Sequence record: OZ035741.1
DNA length: 64,000 nt
Strand: one strand, 5' to 3'
Source: Felixounavirus LF82P2
A program made the position numbers and the translations under genes. The notes beneath the pieces were generated by a model. The model had not been told where the DNA came from, ran no database searches, and worked only from the letters and a program-made list of their open reading frames with translations. Position 1 is the first letter of the stretch. Each line of letters starts with the position of its first letter. Of this stretch, positions 25,231 to 59,903 are shown in pieces.

Positions 25231-27375
25231 ATGAACAAAGTACAGATTATTAAAAAGAATGGCTCACTTGAAGAACCTGATATCAAAAAAGTTTTAGCAG
25301 CAGTCACAAAGTCAGCTAACAGAGTTGGTTATAAAGAGCTTCCACCAGATGTTACTCAAGCTCTTGAGTCAGCATTTATGAGGATTCTGGTAAAGTCCAC
25401 TAAACAGAATAATTTGCTAATTTCGGTAAATGATATTCACAGTATTGTTGAGGGTGCTTTGGCAGAAGTCAATCACGAGATTTATGAGTCTTACTCAACA
25501 TATAGAAATTACCGTAAAGAGGTTGCTCAAAATTGGGATGAACTCTACCAGAAGACCAAAGATACACTCTTCTTAGGCGACCGAGAAAACGCTAATTTTG
25601 ACAGCAGTTTAATTTCTACAAAAGGCTCAATTATTCGTGGTTACCTGACTAAAGAAATCTTTAAACAGTACCATTTAACACCAGAGGAACTTGAAGCCAT
25701 TGAAAAAGGATTTATCTATATCCATGATTTAAGAGACCTAATTTTTGGTGGTATCAACTGTTGCCTGTTTGACATTGGTAAAGTCCTGAAAGGTGGCTTT
25801 GAAATGTCTGGCATCGAATATTGTGAACCGAAGTCTGTGCTGTCAGCCTTACAGGTTATTGGTGATGTAGTTCTTTCAGCAACTGCACAGCAATTTGGTG
25901 GCTTTACTTTAGCAGAGATTGATAAGGTACTTGTACCGTATGCTAAGAAGTCTCTACGCTATCATGCTGAGAAAGCAGCATCTTATGGTATTCCTAAAGA
26001 ACATTACCATAATTATGTCATGGAGCAGCTACAGATTGAATTAACTCAAGGTTTTCAGTCACTTGAAATGAAACTGAACACTGTACCTTGCAGCCGTGGT
26101 GATTTCGCATTCACAACTTTAACATTTGGGTTGCTCGACTCAGATATGTCTAATGAAGACAACCGACTACAATACATGATTGCAAGTACTCTCCTAGATG
26201 TTCGTATGAATGGACAAGGTAAGAGCAAGAAGCCTGTTGTATTTCCTAAACTGGTTTATATTTATGACCAGAAGAGACATGATGAAAATATCTGTCAAGG
26301 TCACCTGTACAGTAAAGCTATTGAGTGTTGCTCTAAAGCAATGTATCCAGATTTCTTAAGTGTATCTGGTCATGGTGCTGTAGCAGAGGCTTTTGAGCGT
26401 TCTGGCAAGGTTATTTCGCCGATGGGTTGCCGAGCGTTCTTATCTCCGTATCTTAACGAGAATGGGGAAGAGTTCTACGTTGGTCGTGCTAACATTGGTG
26501 CTGTATCTTTGAACTTACCAATGATTTACCAGTATTCTAAAGAGAATGGTTTAGATTTCTGGAAAGAGCTTGATAAGTACCTAGAAATGATTCGCAGCTT
26601 CCACAAGAAACGCTACGAAATGATTGCTAATATGCCAGCAAGTTCTAACCCTCTTGCATTCACGCAAGGTGGTCTGTACAAAGGGACTAAGAAGCCTACT
26701 GATAAGGTTGGTTGGGATATCGTGAAATCTTTCACAGCCTCTTTTGGGGTTACTGCTCTTGATGAGTTGTCTGTTCTTGCTGAGGGTAAACGACTCCATG
26801 AAGTTGGAAGCTGTAGTTTTGCATATGATGTTCTGGCATACATTAACATGAAAACTGAAGAGTTTAAGAACGAAGATGGCTTCTTGTATGCGGTATATGG
26901 CACTCCAGCAGAGTCATTGTGTGGAACTCAGCTAAAACAGTTCAGAGATATGTTTGGTGTTATTAAAGGCGTTTCTGACAAGGAATACTTTACAAACAGT
27001 TTCCATATGAATGTTGCAGCAAACATCTCACCATTTGAGAAGCAGGACTTAGAAGAGCCATTCTTCCATATCTGTAGAGGTGGCAGAATCCAGTATGTAA
27101 GGGTAGCTAACCCAGAAAACTTACCAGCACTTAAAAGTTGTATTACCAGAGGGATGTTGAAGGGTTTTTATCAGGGACTTAACTTTGACTTAGCAATCTG
27201 TGAACATTGTGGTAACAGACCAAAGGCTGATGTTGAAGAATGTGAGGTTTGTCATTCACACGATATCTCTGTGATTAACAGGGTGTGCGGGTACTTGTCA
27301 TTCACAAAAATTAAAGGTCAGTCTCGAATGAATGACGCTAAGATGGCAGAAATTAAGGATAGGGTTTCTATGTAG
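25231..27375 (+). CDS. nrdD: anaerobic ribonucleoside-triphosphate reductase
   Basis: 714 aa; C-terminal glycyl-radical motif RVCGYL and Cys-rich zinc site (CEHCG..CEVCH). Confidence 0.8.
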   Translation: MNKVQIIKKNGSLEEPDIKKVLAAVTKSANRVGYKELPPDVTQALESAFMRILVKSTKQNNLLISVNDIHSIVEGALAEVNHEIYESYSTYRNYRKEVAQNWDELYQKTKDTLFLGDRENANFDSSLISTKGSIIRGYLTKEIFKQYHLTPEELEAIEKGFIYIHDLRDLIFGGINCCLFDIGKVLKGGFEMSGIEYCEPKSVLSALQVIGDVVLSATAQQFGGFTLAEIDKVLVPYAKKSLRYHAEKAASYGIPKEHYHNYVMEQLQIELTQGFQSLEMKLNTVPCSRGDFAFTTLTFGLLDSDMSNEDNRLQYMIASTLLDVRMNGQGKSKKPVVFPKLVYIYDQKRHDENICQGHLYSKAIECCSKAMYPDFLSVSGHGAVAEAFERSGKVISPMGCRAFLSPYLNENGEEFYVGRANIGAVSLNLPMIYQYSKENGLDFWKELDKYLEMIRSFHKKRYEMIANMPASSNPLAFTQGGLYKGTKKPTDKVGWDIVKSFTASFGVTALDELSVLAEGKRLHEVGSCSFAYDVLAYINMKTEEFKNEDGFLYAVYGTPAESLCGTQLKQFRDMFGVIKGVSDKEYFTNSFHMNVAANISPFEKQDLEEPFFHICRGGRIQYVRVANPENLPALKSCITRGMLKGFYQGLNFDLAICEHCGNRPKADVEECEVCHSHDISVINRVCGYLSFTKIKGQSRMNDAKMAEIKDRVSM

Positions 27376-56600: not shown

Positions 56601-58016
56601 ATGAGCGAATTATTTAAACATGCGCACCTTCATGCAGGTCGAACTGAAAATGGTGCTGTAAACCATACTTCATCAATGTCTGCTCTTGTAGACTTTTACA
56701 AAGCTGCTGGTTCAAGCCGTAGCAATGTAGAAATCTTACCAGACCTGTTCTACAAAGCTTTGCGTGAGGATGTTGATGTTGCAGTTCGTATTTTACTGCA
56801 TATGCGAGATGTACGAGAAGGTATGGGTGAGCGTAAAGCCTTCAGAACTGTTTTGCTTCAAGCAATTGAAGATAAAGTTTTAGAGCCTACACAGGTTCTT
56901 CGCATTATGGATAAGATTGCAGAACTTGGTCGTTTTGATGACTTCAAAATCTTCGTAGGTACTCGTTTCGAGACAGATGCCTTCAAACATTTAGAAGCAG
57001 CATTACTAGACCCTGCAACAGCAGGTTTGGCAGCTAAGTGGTTACCACGAGTAAAACCACGTCACAAACAGTTTGTAAAACGTTTCTGCAAGTTTGCAAA
57101 CTTGAGTGAGAAGGAGTATCGCACACTGTTATCTGCACTGTCTGATACGGTTGAGCAAAAAATCTCTGCTAATGAGTTTGGTAAGATTGACTACAGTAAG
57201 ATTCCTTCACTTGCTGCTGCACGTTACCAAAAACTCTTTAACCGTAAAGATGGAGAACGCTACAAAGCTTACATTGAGTCCTTATCAAAGGGCGAGACTA
57301 AGATTAATGCTGGTGCTGTTTATCCATACGATGTGATTAAATCTGTTAAGTATGGTAATGCAGATGTTGCTAATGAGCAGTGGAAAGCACTACCAAACTG
57401 GATGGCAGAGGGTGAAAACATTCTATGTATGTCTGATGTTTCAAGTTCAATGTCTTGGGTGAATTTTGGTTCAATTACTGCTCTTGATATTGGTGTTTCA
57501 CTTGCATTGTATGTAGCAGAACGTAATACAGGTTGCTTTAAGAATGAGTTGATGGTTTATTCAACAAACCCTCACTTCATTGAACTGAGTGGTGATTTAC
57601 GAAACCGTCATCGTCAGGTGATGCGACACGTTGAATATGGCTCAACTAACTTACAAGCAGCTTTTGACCGTATTCTTGAGACAGGTAAAAGAAACAACTT
57701 GACTCAGAAAGATATGCCAAGTAAGCTTATCATCTTCTCCGATATGGAGTTCAATCAGGTTGATGGAGCTAACGGTCGTACAAACTTTGAAGCAATTCAG
57801 AGTAAGTACAAAAAAGCTGGATATGAGATGCCACAACTGGTATTCTGGTACTTAGCAAACCGTAATGGTACTTGCGAAGTATCTGTTAAGGATAACGGTG
57901 TAGCAATGGTATCAGGGTTCTCTCCAGCCACTTTAAAAGCTCTGCTTGGTGGTGAGAAGTTTGACCCAATCAGTGTAATGCTCAAAGCAGTAATGATTGA
58001 CCGTTATATCTGGTAA
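56601..58016 (+). CDS. von Willebrand factor A (vWA) domain protein
   Basis: 471 aa; MIDAS-like DVSSSMS (DxSxS) near residue 280 followed by Rossmann-like pattern; helical N-terminal domain. Confidence 0.4.
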   Translation: MSELFKHAHLHAGRTENGAVNHTSSMSALVDFYKAAGSSRSNVEILPDLFYKALREDVDVAVRILLHMRDVREGMGERKAFRTVLLQAIEDKVLEPTQVLRIMDKIAELGRFDDFKIFVGTRFETDAFKHLEAALLDPATAGLAAKWLPRVKPRHKQFVKRFCKFANLSEKEYRTLLSALSDTVEQKISANEFGKIDYSKIPSLAAARYQKLFNRKDGERYKAYIESLSKGETKINAGAVYPYDVIKSVKYGNADVANEQWKALPNWMAEGENILCMSDVSSSMSWVNFGSITALDIGVSLALYVAERNTGCFKNELMVYSTNPHFIELSGDLRNRHRQVMRHVEYGSTNLQAAFDRILETGKRNNLTQKDMPSKLIIFSDMEFNQVDGANGRTNFEAIQSKYKKAGYEMPQLVFWYLANRNGTCEVSVKDNGVAMVSGFSPATLKALLGGEKFDPISVMLKAVMIDRYIW

Positions 58017-58035
58017 AAAGTTTTAAAAAGGGTAT

Positions 58036-58064
58036 TGACAATGTGTTTAATACCCTTTAATATG
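58036..58064 (+). promoter_or_regulatory. sigma70-like promoter (TTGACA-17-TAATAT) upstream of tRNA cluster
   Basis: Consensus -35 and near-consensus -10. Confidence 0.45.
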
Positions 58065-58171
58065 TTCTACATAGAAGCGAAATGAGAGCTTTTCTAAGAT
58101 ACTGAAAAATATTTTAAAAAAGCTCTTGACAACCACTAAAAAATAATGTTAAAGTGGTTACATAGAGTTTG

Positions 58172-58343: not shown

Positions 58344-58434
58344 GTTTTGACAGAAGACCAAATACAGCAAACTTAATCTTATTCATCTGAAGGTAAATCG
58401 GACAAAGAAGAGATTTGGTCTGGTCATTAAGAAT

Positions 58435-58511: not shown

Positions 58512-58594
58512 AATTTACAGAAGACCGTTTACAGCAACATTTATTAAATTTTTAGCGGAAAAATTGAAAGATACGGTCTGGTAATACTAAACAT

Positions 58595-58833: not shown

Positions 58834-58911
58834 GGTTATGTAGTTTAATTTGGTTAAAATACTCCCCTGTCACGGGAGATGATGAGGGTTCAAATCCCTT
58901 CGTAACCGCCA
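58834..58911 (+). tRNA. tRNA-Asp (anticodon GTC)
   Basis: Acceptor GGTTATG/CGTAACC, anticodon stem CTCCC/GGGAG loop CTGTCAC. Confidence 0.7.
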
Positions 58912-59081
58912 ATTTTGAGAGGGCTATTTAGCCCCTCCCTTAAAGGGTTCTTACGAGTATCCTTTAAAGGAGCAGAAGACCAAATACAGCAAGTTACTTA
59001 AAATTTCAAGCCAATTTAATTTTGAAAAATTTAAAACTTGGTCTGGCTCAACAAATTTACAGAAGACCGTTTACAGCAAAA

Positions 59082-59178
59082 CTTAAACAATCTATTTCTC
59101 GGTAAAGAAAAGGCGAAGGTTCGATTCCTTCACTCGGCAGATGTCGAGTTGGTGTAATGGTAGCACTTAAGATGATAA
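59082..59178 (+). pseudogene. tRNA halves in permuted order (3' half upstream of 5' half); possible circularly permuted tRNA or rearranged pseudogene
   Basis: 3' part 59082-59139 (CTTAA, variable-arm hairpin, T-arm GAAGG-TTCGATT-CCTTC, acceptor ACTCGGC) then 5' part 59143-59178 (acceptor GTCGAGT, D-arm, TTAAG, loop ATGATAA). Confidence 0.35.
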
Positions 59179-59339
59179 ACAACGGTCTGGTAATTATCTT
59201 TGTAGATAAGTTATTAAGCTTACCTGTGAGTATGCGACCACAAAGGGTGAAAGGGTAAATTCTAGATTTAAACCCAAAAAGGCACATCGCTACAGACCTT
59301 AAGCAAGTCTGGGTAGCTTATCTACAAAGATAATTTAAT

Positions 59340-59415
59340 GGAAGTGTAGCAGAATGGTGATGCGGCAGACTTTTAATCTGACAGGCGATGGGTTCGAATC
59401 CCTCCACTTCTACCA
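59340..59415 (+). tRNA. tRNA-Lys (anticodon TTT)
   Basis: Acceptor GGAAGTG/CACTTCT, anticodon loop CTTTTAA, T-loop GGGTTCGAATCCC. Confidence 0.65.
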
Positions 59416-59498: not shown

Positions 59499-59573
59499 TG
59501 TGGGTTAGCATAAATGGTAATGCAAACGGCTGATAACCGTTAGAAGAGGGTTCGATACCCTCACCTACAACCA
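59499..59573 (+). tRNA. tRNA-Ile (anticodon GAT)
   Basis: Anticodon arm AACGG-CTGATAA-CCGTT; T-loop GGGTTCGATACCC. Confidence 0.7.
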
Positions 59574-59591
59574 AGTTCAATAAAGTTGTTG

Positions 59592-59620
59592 ACATTGAGA
59601 TGTGACTACTTTATAGTAAC
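59592..59620 (+). promoter_or_regulatory. sigma70-like promoter inside tRNA cluster (TTGACA-17-TATAGT)
   Basis: Consensus -35 and good -10 in spacer after tRNA-Ile. Confidence 0.45.
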
Positions 59621-59821: not shown

Positions 59822-59903
59822 CGGGGCGTATCTCAGCGGTCTTCTAAACCGCCGTTAACCGAGTAAGTGGAGTATGCGGGTTCGAGTCCTGCCGCCTCGA
59901 CCA
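59822..59903 (+). tRNA. atypical tRNA-like gene (possible Arg, anticodon TCT), non-canonical arm arrangement
   Basis: Acceptor CGGGGCG/CGCCTCG plus T-arm GCGGG-TTCGAGT-CCTGC and CCA; perfect hairpin GCGGT-CTTCTAA-ACCGC sits where the D-arm should be. Confidence 0.4.

What the first reader, a model, noticed from the sequence alone, without database searches (positions are those of the whole stretch)
59057..59190. tRNA halves in permuted order inside an inverted-repeat element
A tRNA 3' half lies directly upstream of a matching 5' half. The 3' part (59082-59139) has CTTAA, a variable-arm hairpin TTTCT/AGAAA, the T-arm GAAGG-TTCGATT-CCTTC and acceptor strand ACTCGGC. The 5' part (59143-59178) has acceptor strand GTCGAGT, a D-arm-like GTGTAATGGTAGCAC, then TTAAG and loop ATGATAA. 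The two acceptor strands pair at 7 of 7 positions (one G-U), and TTAAG pairs with CTTAA to form an anticodon stem with a GAT anticodon. The unit is flanked by AGACCGTT and AACGGTCT, which can pair to close it. This is the layout of a circularly permuted tRNA gene; a tandem-duplication or deletion remnant is the main alternative.
Basis: partly seen in the sequence, partly recalled or inferred. Interest (0 to 1): 0.7.

Follow-up and report, generated by a model that had tools for sequence, protein, structure and literature searches.

The report
Phage tRNA-mimic Y-like RNA, not tRNA
The "back-to-front tRNA" is real and conserved, but it is most likely a small tRNA-mimicking RNA of the Y-RNA kind, one of four such RNAs placed beside a phage gene for a Ro60-like RNA-binding protein, and the same RNA-plus-protein pairing turns up unannotated in phages of very different bacteria.

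Summary
In a Felix O1-like phage tRNA array, 59064-59188 holds a T arm, a closed acceptor hairpin and a D arm in permuted order, closed by an 8-bp stem.

It is not a permuted tRNA gene:
- Across nine Ounavirinae phages the closing stem, T arm, D arm and acceptor hairpin are kept. The acceptor hairpin shows compensatory changes.
- The proposed anticodon stem breaks, and the "GAU" triplet is deleted.
- No CCA is encoded, whereas 24 of 25 real tRNAs here encode it.
- There is no bulge-helix-bulge motif, and no RNA ligase is annotated in the Felix O1 stretch read (16.4-82 kb of 86 kb).

The same frame, stem + UACAGCAA ... stem + G, encloses three plain hairpin units nearby (E1-E3). All four lie 0.3-1 kb downstream, on the same strand, of a gene whose predicted fold is Ro60.

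This is the topology of bacterial YrlA Y RNAs, but the YrlA Ro60-binding motif is absent and Rfam's YrlA model does not match.

Units with this frame flank homologous Ro60-like (DUF2828) genes in every phage group opened. A covariance model gave 73 hits on the gene strand and none on the other.

Best reading: a new variant of Y-like RNA, with binding and expression untested. The frame also resembles Dictyostelium Class I RNAs.

The parts
56601..58016 (+). Gene for a 471-aa Ro60-fold protein (Felix O1 ORF42, Bas63 gp130 family; Pfam DUF2828 + DUF7788; PHROG 850 'RNA-binding protein'). Proposed protein partner of the units below.
   Evidence: Pfam. PHROG. AlphaFold model with pLDDT 89.5. The top 12 Foldseek PDB hits are all Ro60/Rsr, E 8e-9 to 2e-6, TM up to 0.66. 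Full-length 31-34% identity to mycobacteriophage 'Ro-like RNA binding protein'.
58035..58155 (+). Two sigma-70-like promoter matches (58035-58063 and 58126-58155) ahead of the tRNA array. The next one is at 59589-59617, and no + strand terminator-like site lies between.
   Evidence: Consensus scan. These are pattern matches only.
58351..58423 (+). Unit E1, between tRNA-Glu and tRNA-Met: CAGA-AGACCAAA-UACAGCAA ... UUUGGUCU-GG. A plain hairpin interior.
   Evidence: Exact motif. Stem found by script. R2 38.4 bits. Present in all Ounavirinae loci read.
58518..58581 (+). Unit E2, between tRNA-Met and tRNA-Asn: CAGA-AGACCGU-UUACAGCAA ... ACGGUCU-GG.
   Evidence: R2 44.5 bits. R1 45.9 bits on the frame alone.
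58973..59046 (+). Unit E3: CAGA-AGACCAA-AUACAGCAA ... UUGGUCU-GG, with an AU-rich hairpin interior.
   Evidence: R2 38.4 bits. Weak Rfam Dicty_Class_I_RNA hit, 15.3 bits.
59060..59190 (+). Unit E4, the finding: the same frame enclosing a tRNA-like body in the order V hairpin, T arm, acceptor hairpin, D arm.
   Evidence: R1 143.8 bits. Comparative counts.
59064..59071 (+). E4 closing stem, 5' strand AGACCGUU. It pairs with 59181-59188.
   Evidence: 100% paired in 9 relatives, with one C-G to U-G change. AAA/UUU versus GUU/AAC covary among E1-E4.
59072..59079 (+). UACAGCAA motif, single-stranded, directly after the 5' strand of the stem. ACAGCAA was required in selecting the 39 aligned units, so its invariance there is by construction.
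59091..59113 (+). V (variable-arm-like) hairpin UCUAUUUCU-cgguaa-AGAAAAGG. It is preceded by CUAU, which fits the YUAY said to begin the V loop of YrlA.
   Evidence: 86% paired, replaced by another hairpin in HP1 and Moogle. A near-identical V hairpin occurs in Bacillus phage FADO. YUAY is from PMC4201824.
59115..59131 (+). T arm GAAGG-UUCGAUU-CCUUC.
   Evidence: Rfam tRNA positions 43-63, 14.9 bits. 100% paired.
59132..59149 (+). Acceptor hairpin ACUCGGC-agau-GUCGAGU. It is closed by a 4-nt loop and has no CCA.
   Evidence: 100% paired, with 3 of 7 pairs changed on both sides. Other genera have ACACGU-uacg-GCGUGU or ACCCUUC-gccaaaca-GAAGGGU. No CCA.
59152..59166 (+). D arm GUGU-AAUGGUA-GCAC, preceded by U8 and G9.
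   Evidence: Invariant stem in 9 relatives. The same GGUGUAAUGGGAGCA occurs in Bacillus phage FADO.
59167..59180 (+). In fact it is the 3' side of an internal loop. It is not conserved.
   Evidence: 71% paired and no compensatory change. 2-3 nt deleted in Susp and Moogle types.
59181..59190 (+). E4 closing stem, 3' strand AACGGUCU, plus the conserved GG. The G directly after the stem is invariant in all 39 aligned units.
59189..59339 (+). A separate conserved structured element: a 23-bp closing stem around a variable interior, directly between E4 and tRNA-Lys. Its function is unknown, and it is not part of the Y-like frame.
   Evidence: RNAalifold on 7 Ounavirinae: 39 pairs, 6 with compensatory change. 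No Rfam match.

Best explanation
E4 (59060-59190) is a small non-coding RNA of the Y-RNA kind with a tRNA-mimicking domain. It has the architecture described for bacterial YrlA.

Proposed mechanism, all steps inferred:
- It is transcribed with the tRNA array from the promoters at about 58035-58155. It is released when RNase P and the 3' processing enzymes excise the neighbouring tRNAs.
- Its two ends pair into a 7-8 bp stem that is immediately followed by single-stranded UACAGCAA and ends in UCUGG. This module, shared with the plain hairpin units E1-E3, is proposed to be the binding site for the Ro60-fold protein encoded just upstream (56601-58016).
- The interior of E4 folds as the 'elbow' half of a tRNA: T arm and D arm with the invariant loop bases, and a 7-bp acceptor helix closed by a loop. 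This would let the RNP engage proteins that recognise tRNA shape, or protect the RNA from nucleases, as proposed for YrlA.
- It does not decode.

Shown here:
- the sequence anatomy;
- conservation and compensatory changes;
- the Ro60 fold of the neighbouring gene's product;
- the recurrent physical linkage of such units with homologous genes in unrelated phages.

Not shown: expression, processing, protein binding and biological role.
For: 1. Topology matches YrlA. The order 5' strand, V, T, acceptor stem-loop, D, 3' strand is the order described in PMC4201824.

2. The neighbouring gene encodes a Ro60 fold. The model has pLDDT 89.5, and all top 12 PDB matches are Ro60/Rsr/phage Ro60 over the full length. 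The gene is on the same strand, 334 nt before E1 and 1,043 nt before E4.

3. Selection acts on the elbow and the frame, not on an anticodon.

4. Four units share the frame. Exact matches to AGACCNNNTACAGCAA occur only in the array (4 sites), and 0 of 100 shuffles reach the observed count.

5. Units with stem + (U)(U/A)ACAGCAA ... stem + G sit next to homologous DUF2828 genes in every group opened: Klebsiella, Mycobacterium, Campylobacter, Listeria, Staphylococcus, Bacillus, Aeromonas, Cronobacter and Vibrio phages.

6. In 75 environmental viral loci a strict script finds 53 units on the gene strand and 5 on the other.

7. Covariance model R2 gives 73 hits at E<=0.05 in 782 kb, all on the gene strand and none inside the gene. 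Of the 75 environmental loci, 40 have hits, and 22 of those contributed nothing to the training set. Most hits lie within 700 nt of the gene.

8. Homologous tRNA-like units exist in far-apart phages. R1 scores 55.8, 48.6 and 48.1 bits, and Rfam YrlA scores two of them at 39.6 and 21.7 bits.

9. G-U pairs in the stems (AGGCC/GGUCU, AGACU/GGUCU, U13-G22) and the strict strand bias point to an RNA-level rather than a DNA-level structure.

10. A preprint on the Felixounavirus Bas63 independently notes the Ro60-like fold of gp130. It guesses that 'some tRNA genes are possibly Y RNAs' without identifying any.
Against: - There are no expression, end-mapping or binding data.
- The YrlA hallmark motif GNCGAAN0-1G is absent from the 5' end of all four units.
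- Rfam's YrlA model does not hit E4 even at E<=10.
- The protein does not match Pfam TROVE; it matches only DUF2828/DUF7788.
- Bas63 gp130 alone, from a plasmid or inserted in T7, counters the Ppl defence. That activity therefore does not need the phage's own units.
- Two natural isolates have lost E4 (FG1m, also E3) or most of it (ESCO45), so it is dispensable for plaque growth.
- 29 of 75 environmental loci show no unit within the 4 kb read on each side.
- The near-perfect stem pairing in alignment A3 is by construction, because the script demanded a stem.
Confidence: 0.75

Rival explanations
1. A genuine circularly permuted tRNA gene. The transcript would be cut at the closing stem, circularised by an RNA ligase and opened at the acceptor loop by RNase P and 3' processing. 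This would give a decoding tRNA, with anticodon GAU or another.
For: - The order 3' half then 5' half, the 7/7 acceptor pairing, the canonical T and D arms and the closing stem are all real.
- ARAGORN accepts two of 16 artificial joins, as tRNA-Phe(aaa) and tRNA-Leu(taa).
- M. smegmatis YrlA shows that RNase P can open such an acceptor loop (PMC4201824).
- Hosts carry RtcB (own knowledge).
Against: - The anticodon stem is not conserved and shows no compensatory change. The 'anticodon' triplet is deleted in sister genera while the rest is kept.
- There is no bulge-helix-bulge motif.
- No CCA is encoded, unlike 24 of 25 real tRNAs here.
- No RNA ligase is annotated in Felix O1 between 16.4 and 82 kb.
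- A colinear tRNA-Ile(GAU) already exists at 59499-59573.
- Three sister units share the frame without any tRNA parts.
Confidence: 0.03
2. A non-functional scar: the remnant of a tandem duplication or deletion between two tRNA genes (T arm of one, D arm of the next), carried along passively.
For: - Recombination between tRNA T arms does happen in this array. Phage FG1m carries an Asn/Lys hybrid tRNA.
- In Cronobacter phage S13 the E4 model aligns across the junction of two tandem tRNAs. Chen et al. warn that dimeric tRNAs mimic YrlA.
- E4 is lost in two isolates.
Against: - Acceptor pairing is kept through changes on both sides at three pairs, and through three different loop solutions.
- The acceptor helix joins T to D directly by a 4-8 nt loop, with no CCA or spacer.
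- The same architecture, with the same frame, recurs in Bacillus, Klebsiella and Mycobacterium phages.
- It is flanked by its own conserved stem and motif.
Confidence: 0.05
3. A structured RNA family that works without the Ro60-like protein. Possibilities are processing or spacer modules of the polycistronic tRNA precursor, decoys for host tRNA-targeting nucleases, or base-pairing sRNAs that use UACAGCAA as a seed.
For: - The units sit between tRNAs in Ounavirinae, Klebsiella and Bacillus phages.
- The tRNA-like body could act as a decoy.
- The single-stranded 8-mer is seed-like.
- gp130 works against Ppl without the units.
Against: - In Staphylococcus, Campylobacter, Listeria, Aeromonas and mycobacteriophage loci the units hug the DUF2828 gene rather than tRNAs. 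Some of these loci have few or no tRNAs nearby.
- Linkage to the gene is the one constant: 73 hits to 0 by strand, and mostly within 700 nt.
- An invariant motif shared across hosts from Actinobacteria to Enterobacteria fits a conserved protein partner better than host mRNA targets.
Confidence: 0.12
4. A DNA-level repeat: a miniature mobile element with terminal inverted repeats, a homing-endonuclease or recombinase site, or a replication or packaging signal.
For: - There are four copies with near-identical ends in 850 bp.
- HNH endonuclease genes are scattered in the array.
- Array content varies among isolates.
Against: - The strand bias is strict relative to the gene.
- G-U pairs would be mismatches in DNA and A-C on the other strand.
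- Stems covary rather than being conserved in sequence across phages.
- The copies are at fixed orthologous positions in all Ounavirinae.
Confidence: 0.03

Closest known systems
YrlA, the bacterial and phage Y RNA-like tRNA mimic (Rfam RF02553; Chen et al. 2014, PMC4201824; also Yrl1/Yrl2 of Thermus phage phiLo, PMC12135203)
   Same: - The ends pair into a stem that carries the presumed protein site.
- The interior has the order V, T arm, acceptor stem-loop, D arm, with tRNA-invariant loop bases.
- It is encoded within 4 kb and on the strand of a Ro60-fold protein gene.
- It is often accompanied by shorter sister RNAs that lack the tRNA body (YrlB-like).
   Different: - The 5' motif GNCGAAN0-1G (CGAA) is absent, and an invariant (U)ACAGCAA follows the stem instead.
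- The Rfam model scores nothing for E4, and 39.6 and 21.7 bits (gathering score 69) for two relatives.
- The protein belongs to DUF2828/DUF7788, not Pfam TROVE. Such genomes were therefore outside the search set of Chen et al., which used TROVE-annotated genomes only.
- The units are embedded in a tRNA array.
Circularly permuted tRNA genes (Cyanidioschyzon merolae nucleus, Thermofilum pendens; from own knowledge)
   Same: The 3' half precedes the 5' half. The acceptor strands are joined by a short intervening loop, and the termini pair.
   Different: - There is no bulge-helix-bulge motif at the termini.
- There is no conserved anticodon arm.
- There is no CCA or evidence of CCA addition.
- The bacterial or phage setting lacks the splicing endonuclease.
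- The same termini enclose non-tRNA units.
Dictyostelid Class I RNAs (Rfam RF01414; Kjellin et al. 2021, PMC7919456)
   Same: - A 6-8 bp stem joins the 5' and 3' ends.
- A conserved single-stranded motif follows the 5' strand directly: CCUUACAGCAA versus phage (U)UACAGCAA. The near-invariant C6, C9, A10 and A11 are kept.
- There is a conserved 5' purine and a 3' ...CUG after the stem.
- The interior is variable, the length is about 60 nt, and several different copies are clustered.
- The Rfam model repeatedly hits phage units at 14-30 bits.
   Different: - All hits are below the gathering score of 41.5.
- Class I RNAs are eukaryotic, have their own DUSE promoter and are reported as unique to Dictyostelia.
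- The known direct binder is an RRM protein (CIBP).
- No link to a Ro60-like protein has been reported.
- Homology versus convergence could not be tested here.
Two-piece (permuted) tmRNA genes (from own knowledge)
   Same: A T arm and acceptor 3' strand lie upstream of the acceptor 5' strand.
   Different: ARAGORN finds no tmRNA. There is no tag reading frame and no pseudoknots. A true D arm is present, and the acceptor is closed by a 4-nt loop rather than separated by a processed spacer.

Membership tests
Circularly permuted tRNA gene | 3' half of a tRNA encoded upstream of the matching 5' half | tested here: met
   T arm and acceptor 3' strand at 59115-59138. Acceptor 5' strand and D arm at 59143-59166.
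Circularly permuted tRNA gene | Termini form a bulge-helix-bulge motif (3-nt bulge, 4-bp helix, 3-nt bulge) for the splicing endonuclease | tested here: not met
   Between the closing stem and the body lies a 10 x 9 nt internal loop with no central helix (fold, sequence).
Circularly permuted tRNA gene | Joining the halves gives a cloverleaf with a conserved anticodon arm | tested here: not met
   ARAGORN rejects the natural joins. The stem is 71% paired with no compensatory change. The loop loses 2-3 nt in sister genera.
Circularly permuted tRNA gene | A circular intermediate and a mature tRNA with a permuted junction | not testable with these tools
   Needs RNA data.
YrlA (Y RNA-like tRNA mimic) | Order 5' strand, V, T arm, acceptor stem-loop, D arm, 3' strand, with tRNA-like T and D loops | tested here: met
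   The definition is from PMC4201824.
YrlA (Y RNA-like tRNA mimic) | GNCGAAN0-1G motif near the 5' end (presumed Ro60 site) | tested here: not met
   The regex is absent from E1-E3. In E4 it matches only GGCGAAGG at 59112, inside the T stem.
YrlA (Y RNA-like tRNA mimic) | Encoded within 4 kb of a Ro60 ortholog, on the same strand | tested here: met
   The gene at 56601-58016 has a Ro60 fold. E4 starts 1,043 nt after its stop. Caveat: there is no Pfam TROVE match.
YrlA (Y RNA-like tRNA mimic) | Reaches the Rfam RF02553 gathering score (69 bits) | tested here: not met
   No hit for E4 at E<=10. Relatives score 39.6 bits and 21.7 bits.
YrlA (Y RNA-like tRNA mimic) | Bound by the Ro60 protein; modified by TruB and DusA | not testable with these tools
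   Needs biochemistry.
Dictyostelid Class I RNA | Short stem joining the ends, with the 11-nt motif CCUUACAGCAA next to the 5' strand | tested here: inconclusive
   The stem is present and 8 of 11 motif bases are identical in the window units. Positions C6, C9, A10 and A11 are kept in the 39 aligned units, which were selected for ACAGCAA (definition).
Dictyostelid Class I RNA | Reaches the Rfam RF01414 gathering score (41.5 bits) | tested here: not met
   The best phage unit scores 29.6 bits and window E3 scores 15.3 bits.
Ro60 / TROVE protein (for the neighbouring gene) | HEAT-repeat ring plus vWA domain with a MIDAS motif | tested here: met
   Foldseek gives full-length matches to 9kop, 2nvo, 1yvp and 2i91. 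The profile aligns the DxSxS region to Xenopus Ro60, weakly at E = 0.59.
Ro60 / TROVE protein (for the neighbouring gene) | Significant sequence match to Pfam TROVE | tested here: not met
   Only DUF2828 and DUF7788 match at E<=0.01.
Two-piece tmRNA | Tag reading frame and pseudoknots; detected by ARAGORN | tested here: not met
   ARAGORN finds no tmRNA in the window.

The most novel reading that the evidence does not exclude
The stem + UACAGCAA + ...UG module is the recognition element of a second, unrecognised branch of Ro60-type ribonucleoproteins, built on DUF2828 proteins.

This branch would span phages of Actinobacteria, Firmicutes, Campylobacterota and Proteobacteria. It fuses the module to tRNA bodies in both circular permutations.

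It would also exist in eukaryotes. On this reading the abundant Class I RNAs of Dictyostelia, so far orphan and thought to be unique to that group, are the Y-like RNAs of a DUF2828-type protein. A candidate is DDB_G0281243, the protein of unknown function that was pulled down with Class I RNA DdR-21.
Probability: 0.3. Interest if true: 0.85.

Novelty: new variant of a known kind. Interest (0 to 1): 0.62.

Why it matters
1. It corrects an attractive but wrong reading. There is no evidence for permuted tRNA genes in phages here.

2. It supplies concrete candidates, with coordinates and two covariance models, for the RNA partners of a very common phage protein family (DUF2828, 'RNA-binding protein', 'Ro-like'). 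More than 700 phage records hold a homologue. One member, Bas63 gp130, has been reported to counter the Ppl defence system, and its authors could only guess that Y RNAs might be hidden among the tRNAs.

3. These RNAs are absent from Rfam 15. They are routinely left unannotated, or mis-annotated as small hypothetical ORFs, pseudo-tRNAs or over-long tRNAs.

4. The recognition motif differs from that of known Y RNAs. This gives a natural experiment on how Ro60-fold rings read RNA.

5. tRNA bodies carry the module in both permutations. This makes testable the idea that the RNP is aimed at tRNA-recognising factors.

6. The resemblance to Dictyostelium Class I RNAs, if it reflects a shared protein partner, would give a function to a long-orphan eukaryotic RNA class.

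Tried and rejected
- ARAGORN on 16 artificial 5'+3' joins.
- Permuted tmRNA. ARAGORN finds none.
- Rfam at relaxed thresholds on the locus. Only the T arm and chance-level hits appeared.
- Recent copy of a neighbouring tRNA. The best local similarity of E4's halves to any window tRNA is low.
- The minus-strand ORF 59057-59287 (76 aa), annotated as a hypothetical protein in some records. It lies antisense to the array, and 1-nt and 9-nt indels among relatives would break it. Rejected as a gene.
- Sequence search of the protein against PDB chains. Nothing for the single sequence, and only E = 0.59 to Ro60 with a profile. The fold search was needed.
- The afdb50 fold library, which could have shown eukaryotic (Dictyostelium) DUF2828 proteins, was not available.
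- Literature searches for DUF2828, UCP015417, DDB_G0281243, UACAGCAA and Ro-like + Y RNA found no description of this RNA family, and no annotation of the Dictyostelium protein.
- A 7-mer enrichment analysis on loci without units was swamped by coding-strand bias.
- RNA ligase or RtcB in Felix O1. None is annotated between 16.4 and 82 kb. The first 16 kb and last 4 kb were not read.
Full report
CONTEXT

The window is a Felixounavirus. The region is 100% identical to Escherichia phages VpaE1_ev035 and adrianh, and about 99% identical to Salmonella phage Felix O1. From 58182 to the end of the window runs a + strand array of 25 tRNA genes. The finding lies in a 428-nt gap between tRNA-Asp (58834-58911) and tRNA-Lys (59340-59415).

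THE OBSERVATION

It has a closing stem AGACCGUU/AACGGUCU, a short CUUA/UAAG helix, a V hairpin, the T arm GAAGG-UUCGAUU-CCUUC, the acceptor hairpin ACUCGGC-agau-GUCGAGU and the D arm. The folding energy is only modestly better than shuffles (z = -2.1). ARAGORN and Rfam tRNA do not call the locus, and only the T arm aligns to the tRNA model, at 14.9 bits. The case for reality therefore rests on comparison, described next.

COMPARATIVE TEST OF THE PERMUTED-tRNA READING

The unit occurs in about 250 Ounavirinae records, always in the same permuted order. I aligned nine representatives: Felixounavirus, Suspvirus and Mooglevirus, including the Citrobacter phages HP1 and Moogle.

- The closing stem, T arm, acceptor hairpin and D arm are 100% paired.
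- The acceptor hairpin has three pairs changed on both sides and three different solutions: ACUCGGC-agau-GUCGAGU, ACACGU-uacg-GCGUGU and ACCCUUC-gccaaaca-GAAGGGU.
- The proposed anticodon stem is only 71% paired. Three of its five pairs are broken and none shows a compensatory change.
- Its 5' strand reads CAAUA in the Shigella phages and UAUAA in SUSP1/2, and is deleted in HP1 and Moogle.
- The proposed anticodon loop AUGAUAA has lost three bases, the 'GAU', in Mooglevirus and SUSP1, and two in SUSP2.

Selection therefore keeps the elbow half of a tRNA and the frame, but not an anticodon arm.

Further points against a maturing tRNA:
- 24 of the 25 real tRNAs in the window encode 3' CCA, while the acceptor 3' strand of the unit is followed by AGAU.
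- The segment between the closing stem and the body is a 10 x 9 nt internal loop without a bulge-helix-bulge.
- ARAGORN rejects the natural joins.
- No RNA ligase is annotated in Felix O1 between 16.4 and 82 kb.
- A normal tRNA-Ile(GAU) sits 310 nt downstream.

THE UNIT IS ONE OF FOUR

The 16-mer AGACC-NNN-TACAGCAA occurs exactly four times in 64 kb. All four are on the + strand inside the array, at 58355, 58522, 58977 and 59064. Each is the start of a unit of the form CAGA-AGACC(AAA|GUU)-UACAGCAA ... (UUU|AAC)GGUCU-GG. These are E1 58351-58423, E2 58518-58581, E3 58973-59046 and E4 59060-59190. The inner stem bases covary between units (AAA/UUU versus GUU/AAC).

E1-E3 have plain hairpin interiors. 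Only E4 carries the tRNA-like body. All Ounavirinae loci read have E1, E2 and E4, and most have E3. A permuted-tRNA model has no place for E1-E3.

THE NEIGHBOURING GENE

Directly upstream of the array, on the same strand, is a 471-codon gene (56601-58016). It is Felix O1 ORF42, named 'RNA-binding protein' in RefSeq. It matches Pfam DUF2828 and DUF7788 but not TROVE, and PHROG 850.

An AlphaFold model built from 39 homologues has mean pLDDT 89.5. Its 12 best Foldseek matches in the PDB are all Ro60 proteins over their full length: Thermus phage phiLo Ro60, Deinococcus Rsr and Xenopus Ro60. E-values run from 8e-9 to 2e-6 and TM-scores reach 0.66. After them come isolated vWA domains.

tblastn finds full-length homologues in 709 phage records. 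These include mycobacteriophage genes annotated 'Ro-like RNA binding protein', at 31-34% identity.

[quoted passage not shown] It shows that gp130 counters the Ppl defence, and speculates that some of the tRNA genes might be Y RNAs. It identifies none.

WHAT E4 WORKS LIKE

Chen et al. 2014 (PMC4201824) described bacterial and phage YrlA RNAs. Their ends pair into a stem carrying the presumed Ro60 site. Their interior runs V, T arm, acceptor stem-loop, D arm, mimicking tRNA. They are encoded within 4 kb and on the strand of the Ro60 gene, often with a shorter sister RNA. E4 has exactly this topology and context, including a YUAY (CUAU) at the start of V. E1-E3 would be the YrlB-like sisters.

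Membership, however, fails on two tested features:
- The GNCGAAN0-1G motif is absent from the 5' end of all four units.
- Rfam's YrlA model gives no hit for E4 even at E<=10.

Chen et al. searched only genomes with an annotated TROVE protein, so DUF2828-type loci were outside their survey.

GENERALITY

I opened the DUF2828 locus in nine other phage groups. In each, units of the form stem (6-9 bp) + (U)(U/A)ACAGCAA ... stem + G lie in the intergenic DNA beside the gene, on its strand.

- Klebsiella FBKp34 has three or four units between the gene and its tRNA array.
- Mycobacteriophage BigCheese has three just downstream.
- Campylobacter CP81 has two.
- Listeria List-36 has three.
- Staphylococcus 6ec has three.
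- Bacillus FADO has five, among about 20 tRNAs.
- Aeromonas LAh_6 has at least three.
- Cronobacter S13 has one.
- Vibrio XZ1 has one.

Some of these units carry a tRNA-like body in the E4 order. Model R1, built only from the nine Ounavirinae E4 sequences, finds them full-length:
- Bacillus FADO, 55.8 bits (E 6e-10);
- Klebsiella, 48.6 bits;
- mycobacteriophage, 48.1 bits.

The FADO unit even shares E4's D arm (GGUGUAAUGGGAGCA) and V hairpin. Rfam's YrlA model scores the Klebsiella unit at 39.6 bits and the mycobacteriophage unit at 21.7 bits, against a gathering score of 69.

For an unbiased survey I fetched 75 environmental viral loci encoding 38-47% identical proteins.

- A strict script required exact ACAGCAA plus a perfect stem of at least 7 bp. 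It found 53 units on the gene strand and 5 on the opposite strand. Of the 53, 45 lie within 1.5 kb of the gene and none inside it.
- An alignment of 39 short units gives the consensus nnnnAGGnUnC-UUACAGCAA-...-GnAnCCUG. ACAGCAA is invariant because the script required it; the G after the stem is invariant without having been required.
- The stem pairing in that alignment is by construction, since the script demanded it.
- Model R2, built from that alignment and run over 782 kb on both strands, gave 73 hits at E<=0.05. All are on the gene strand.
- In the window it hits only E1, E2 and E3.
- Of the 75 environmental loci, 40 have hits, and 22 of those contributed nothing to the model. The hits lie 7-380 nt upstream or mostly within 700 nt downstream of the gene.
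- 29 loci show nothing within the DNA read.
- No Rfam 15 family reaches its gathering score on any unit.

BOTH PERMUTATIONS EXIST

In Klebsiella FBKp34 a 114-nt 'tRNA-Asp' (L003 7003-7116) is a normal-order tRNA with encoded CCA and an intact GUC anticodon arm. It carries, between the D arm and the anticodon arm, the insert AACUUCU-uag-AGAAGUU-UUACAGCAUU. That insert is the Y-type module with its two ends joined by a loop.

Cronobacter S13 has two tandem over-long tRNAs (121 and 113 nt), each with the insert [CAAACUG-aya-AGUUUG]-UAUUCAGCA. R1 aligns across their junction.

So E4 is a circular permutation, but of a 'tRNA + module' chimera, not of a plain tRNA. Tandem duplication of such a chimera followed by loss of the outer halves is a plausible origin (inference).

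MECHANISM PROPOSED

The inferred steps are these:
- transcription from the promoter-like sites at 58035-58063 and 58126-58155, with no terminator-like site before 59589;
- release by the tRNA-processing enzymes;
- the terminal stem and UACAGCAA bound by the Ro60-fold protein;
- the tRNA-like elbow of E4 acting as an effector or stabilising module, as proposed for YrlA.

Limits to this proposal:
- gp130 alone protects T7 from Ppl.
- Two natural isolates lack E4.

The units are therefore not needed for that activity or for plaque growth. RNA-level rather than DNA-level function is supported by G-U pairs and by the strand bias.

SIDE OBSERVATION WITH THE MOST UPSIDE

At relaxed thresholds the only Rfam family that repeatedly hits the short units is Dicty_Class_I_RNA. 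The scores are:
- 15.3 bits for window E3;
- 18.9 and 14.3 for the mycobacteriophage;
- 25.2, 23.6 and 15.5 for Klebsiella;
- 29.6, 28.0 and 25.7 for Aeromonas.

All are below the gathering score of 41.5.

Class I RNAs are defined by four features. A short stem joins the ends, and the motif CCUUACAGCAA sits directly after its 5' strand. There is a conserved 5' G and a 3' CUGU, and the interior is variable. They are reported as unique to Dictyostelia. One of four proteins pulled down with a Class I RNA is DDB_G0281243, of unknown function.

DUF2828 proteins occur in plants. Whether Dictyostelium has one, and whether it is DDB_G0281243, could not be tested, because the afdb50 library was unavailable. 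This is a lead, not a finding.

VERDICT

The permuted-tRNA-gene interpretation is not supported.

The best explanation is a tRNA-mimicking Y-like RNA belonging to an unannotated, widely distributed family linked to DUF2828-type Ro60 homologues. That makes it a new variant of a known kind. Confidence is about 0.75 that it is a functional RNA of this kind tied to the neighbouring gene. Expression and binding remain to be shown.

Noticed in passing
window 58351-58423, 58518-58581, 58973-59046: Three further units (E1-E3) share the E4 frame CAGA-AGACCnnn-UACAGCAA ... nnnGGUCU-GG but have plain hairpin interiors. They sit between tRNA genes. None is annotated in the records read.
   Followed up: yes
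window 59189-59339: A separate conserved structured element of about 150 nt lies between E4 and tRNA-Lys. It has a 23-bp closing stem with compensatory changes between Felixounavirus and the Moogle and Susp types, and a variable interior. There is no Rfam match and no UACAGCAA frame. Its function is unknown.
   Followed up: partly
L003 7003-7116 (Klebsiella phage FBKp34); L012 4896-5016 and 5026-5138 (Cronobacter phage S13): These over-long 'tRNAs' (113-121 nt) are normal-order tRNAs with encoded CCA. They carry a looped-out stem + UACAGCA/UAUUCAGCA module between the D arm and the anticodon arm. This is the opposite circular permutation of the E4 design.
   Followed up: partly
phage units in L003, L005, L017 and window E3: Rfam's Dictyostelium Class I RNA model repeatedly hits the short units below threshold, at 14-30 bits. 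The shared features are the terminal stem, the UUACAGCAA motif and the 3' CUG. A protein of unknown function (DDB_G0281243) was pulled down with a Class I RNA.
   Followed up: partly
L014 1426-1977 and 5810-7021 (Listeria phage List-36): A ROOL RNA match (91.5 bits, just under the gathering score of 99.1) and an RtcB-type 'tRNA splicing ligase' gene lie in the same locus as the DUF2828 gene and its three units. This recalls the Salmonella rsr-yrlBA-rtcBA operon.
   Followed up: no
L099 about 1291-1362 (Salmonella phage FG1m); L100 1175-1240 (Escherichia phage ESCO45): These are natural deletion variants. FG1m has a hybrid tRNA (Asn 5' part joined to Lys 3' part within the T arm). It has lost tRNA-Tyr, tRNA-Asp, E3, E4 and the 150-nt element. 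ESCO45 keeps only the last 34 nt or so of E4 and has an internal deletion in tRNA-Glu.
   Followed up: partly
window 59822-59900: Rfam calls a tRNA here (31.7 bits) that ARAGORN misses. By position it corresponds to the tRNA-Arg(TCT) annotated in Shigella phage Sf14.
   Followed up: no
window 59057-59287 (- strand): A 76-codon ORF lies antisense to E4 and is annotated as a 'hypothetical protein' in several related records. It is very likely spurious, because indels of 1 and 9 nt among relatives break it.
   Followed up: partly
window 58027-58058: A 12-bp inverted repeat AAAGGGTATTGACA...TAATACCCTTT lies right after the Ro60-like gene and contains the -35 box of the first array promoter. It may act as both terminator and promoter.
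   Followed up: no
related records, e.g. KM657822 (VpaE1) 25811-26589: Some Felixounavirus records have about 330 extra bases within the Asp-to-Lys gap, so the match comes in two pieces. The content of the insert was not examined.
   Followed up: no
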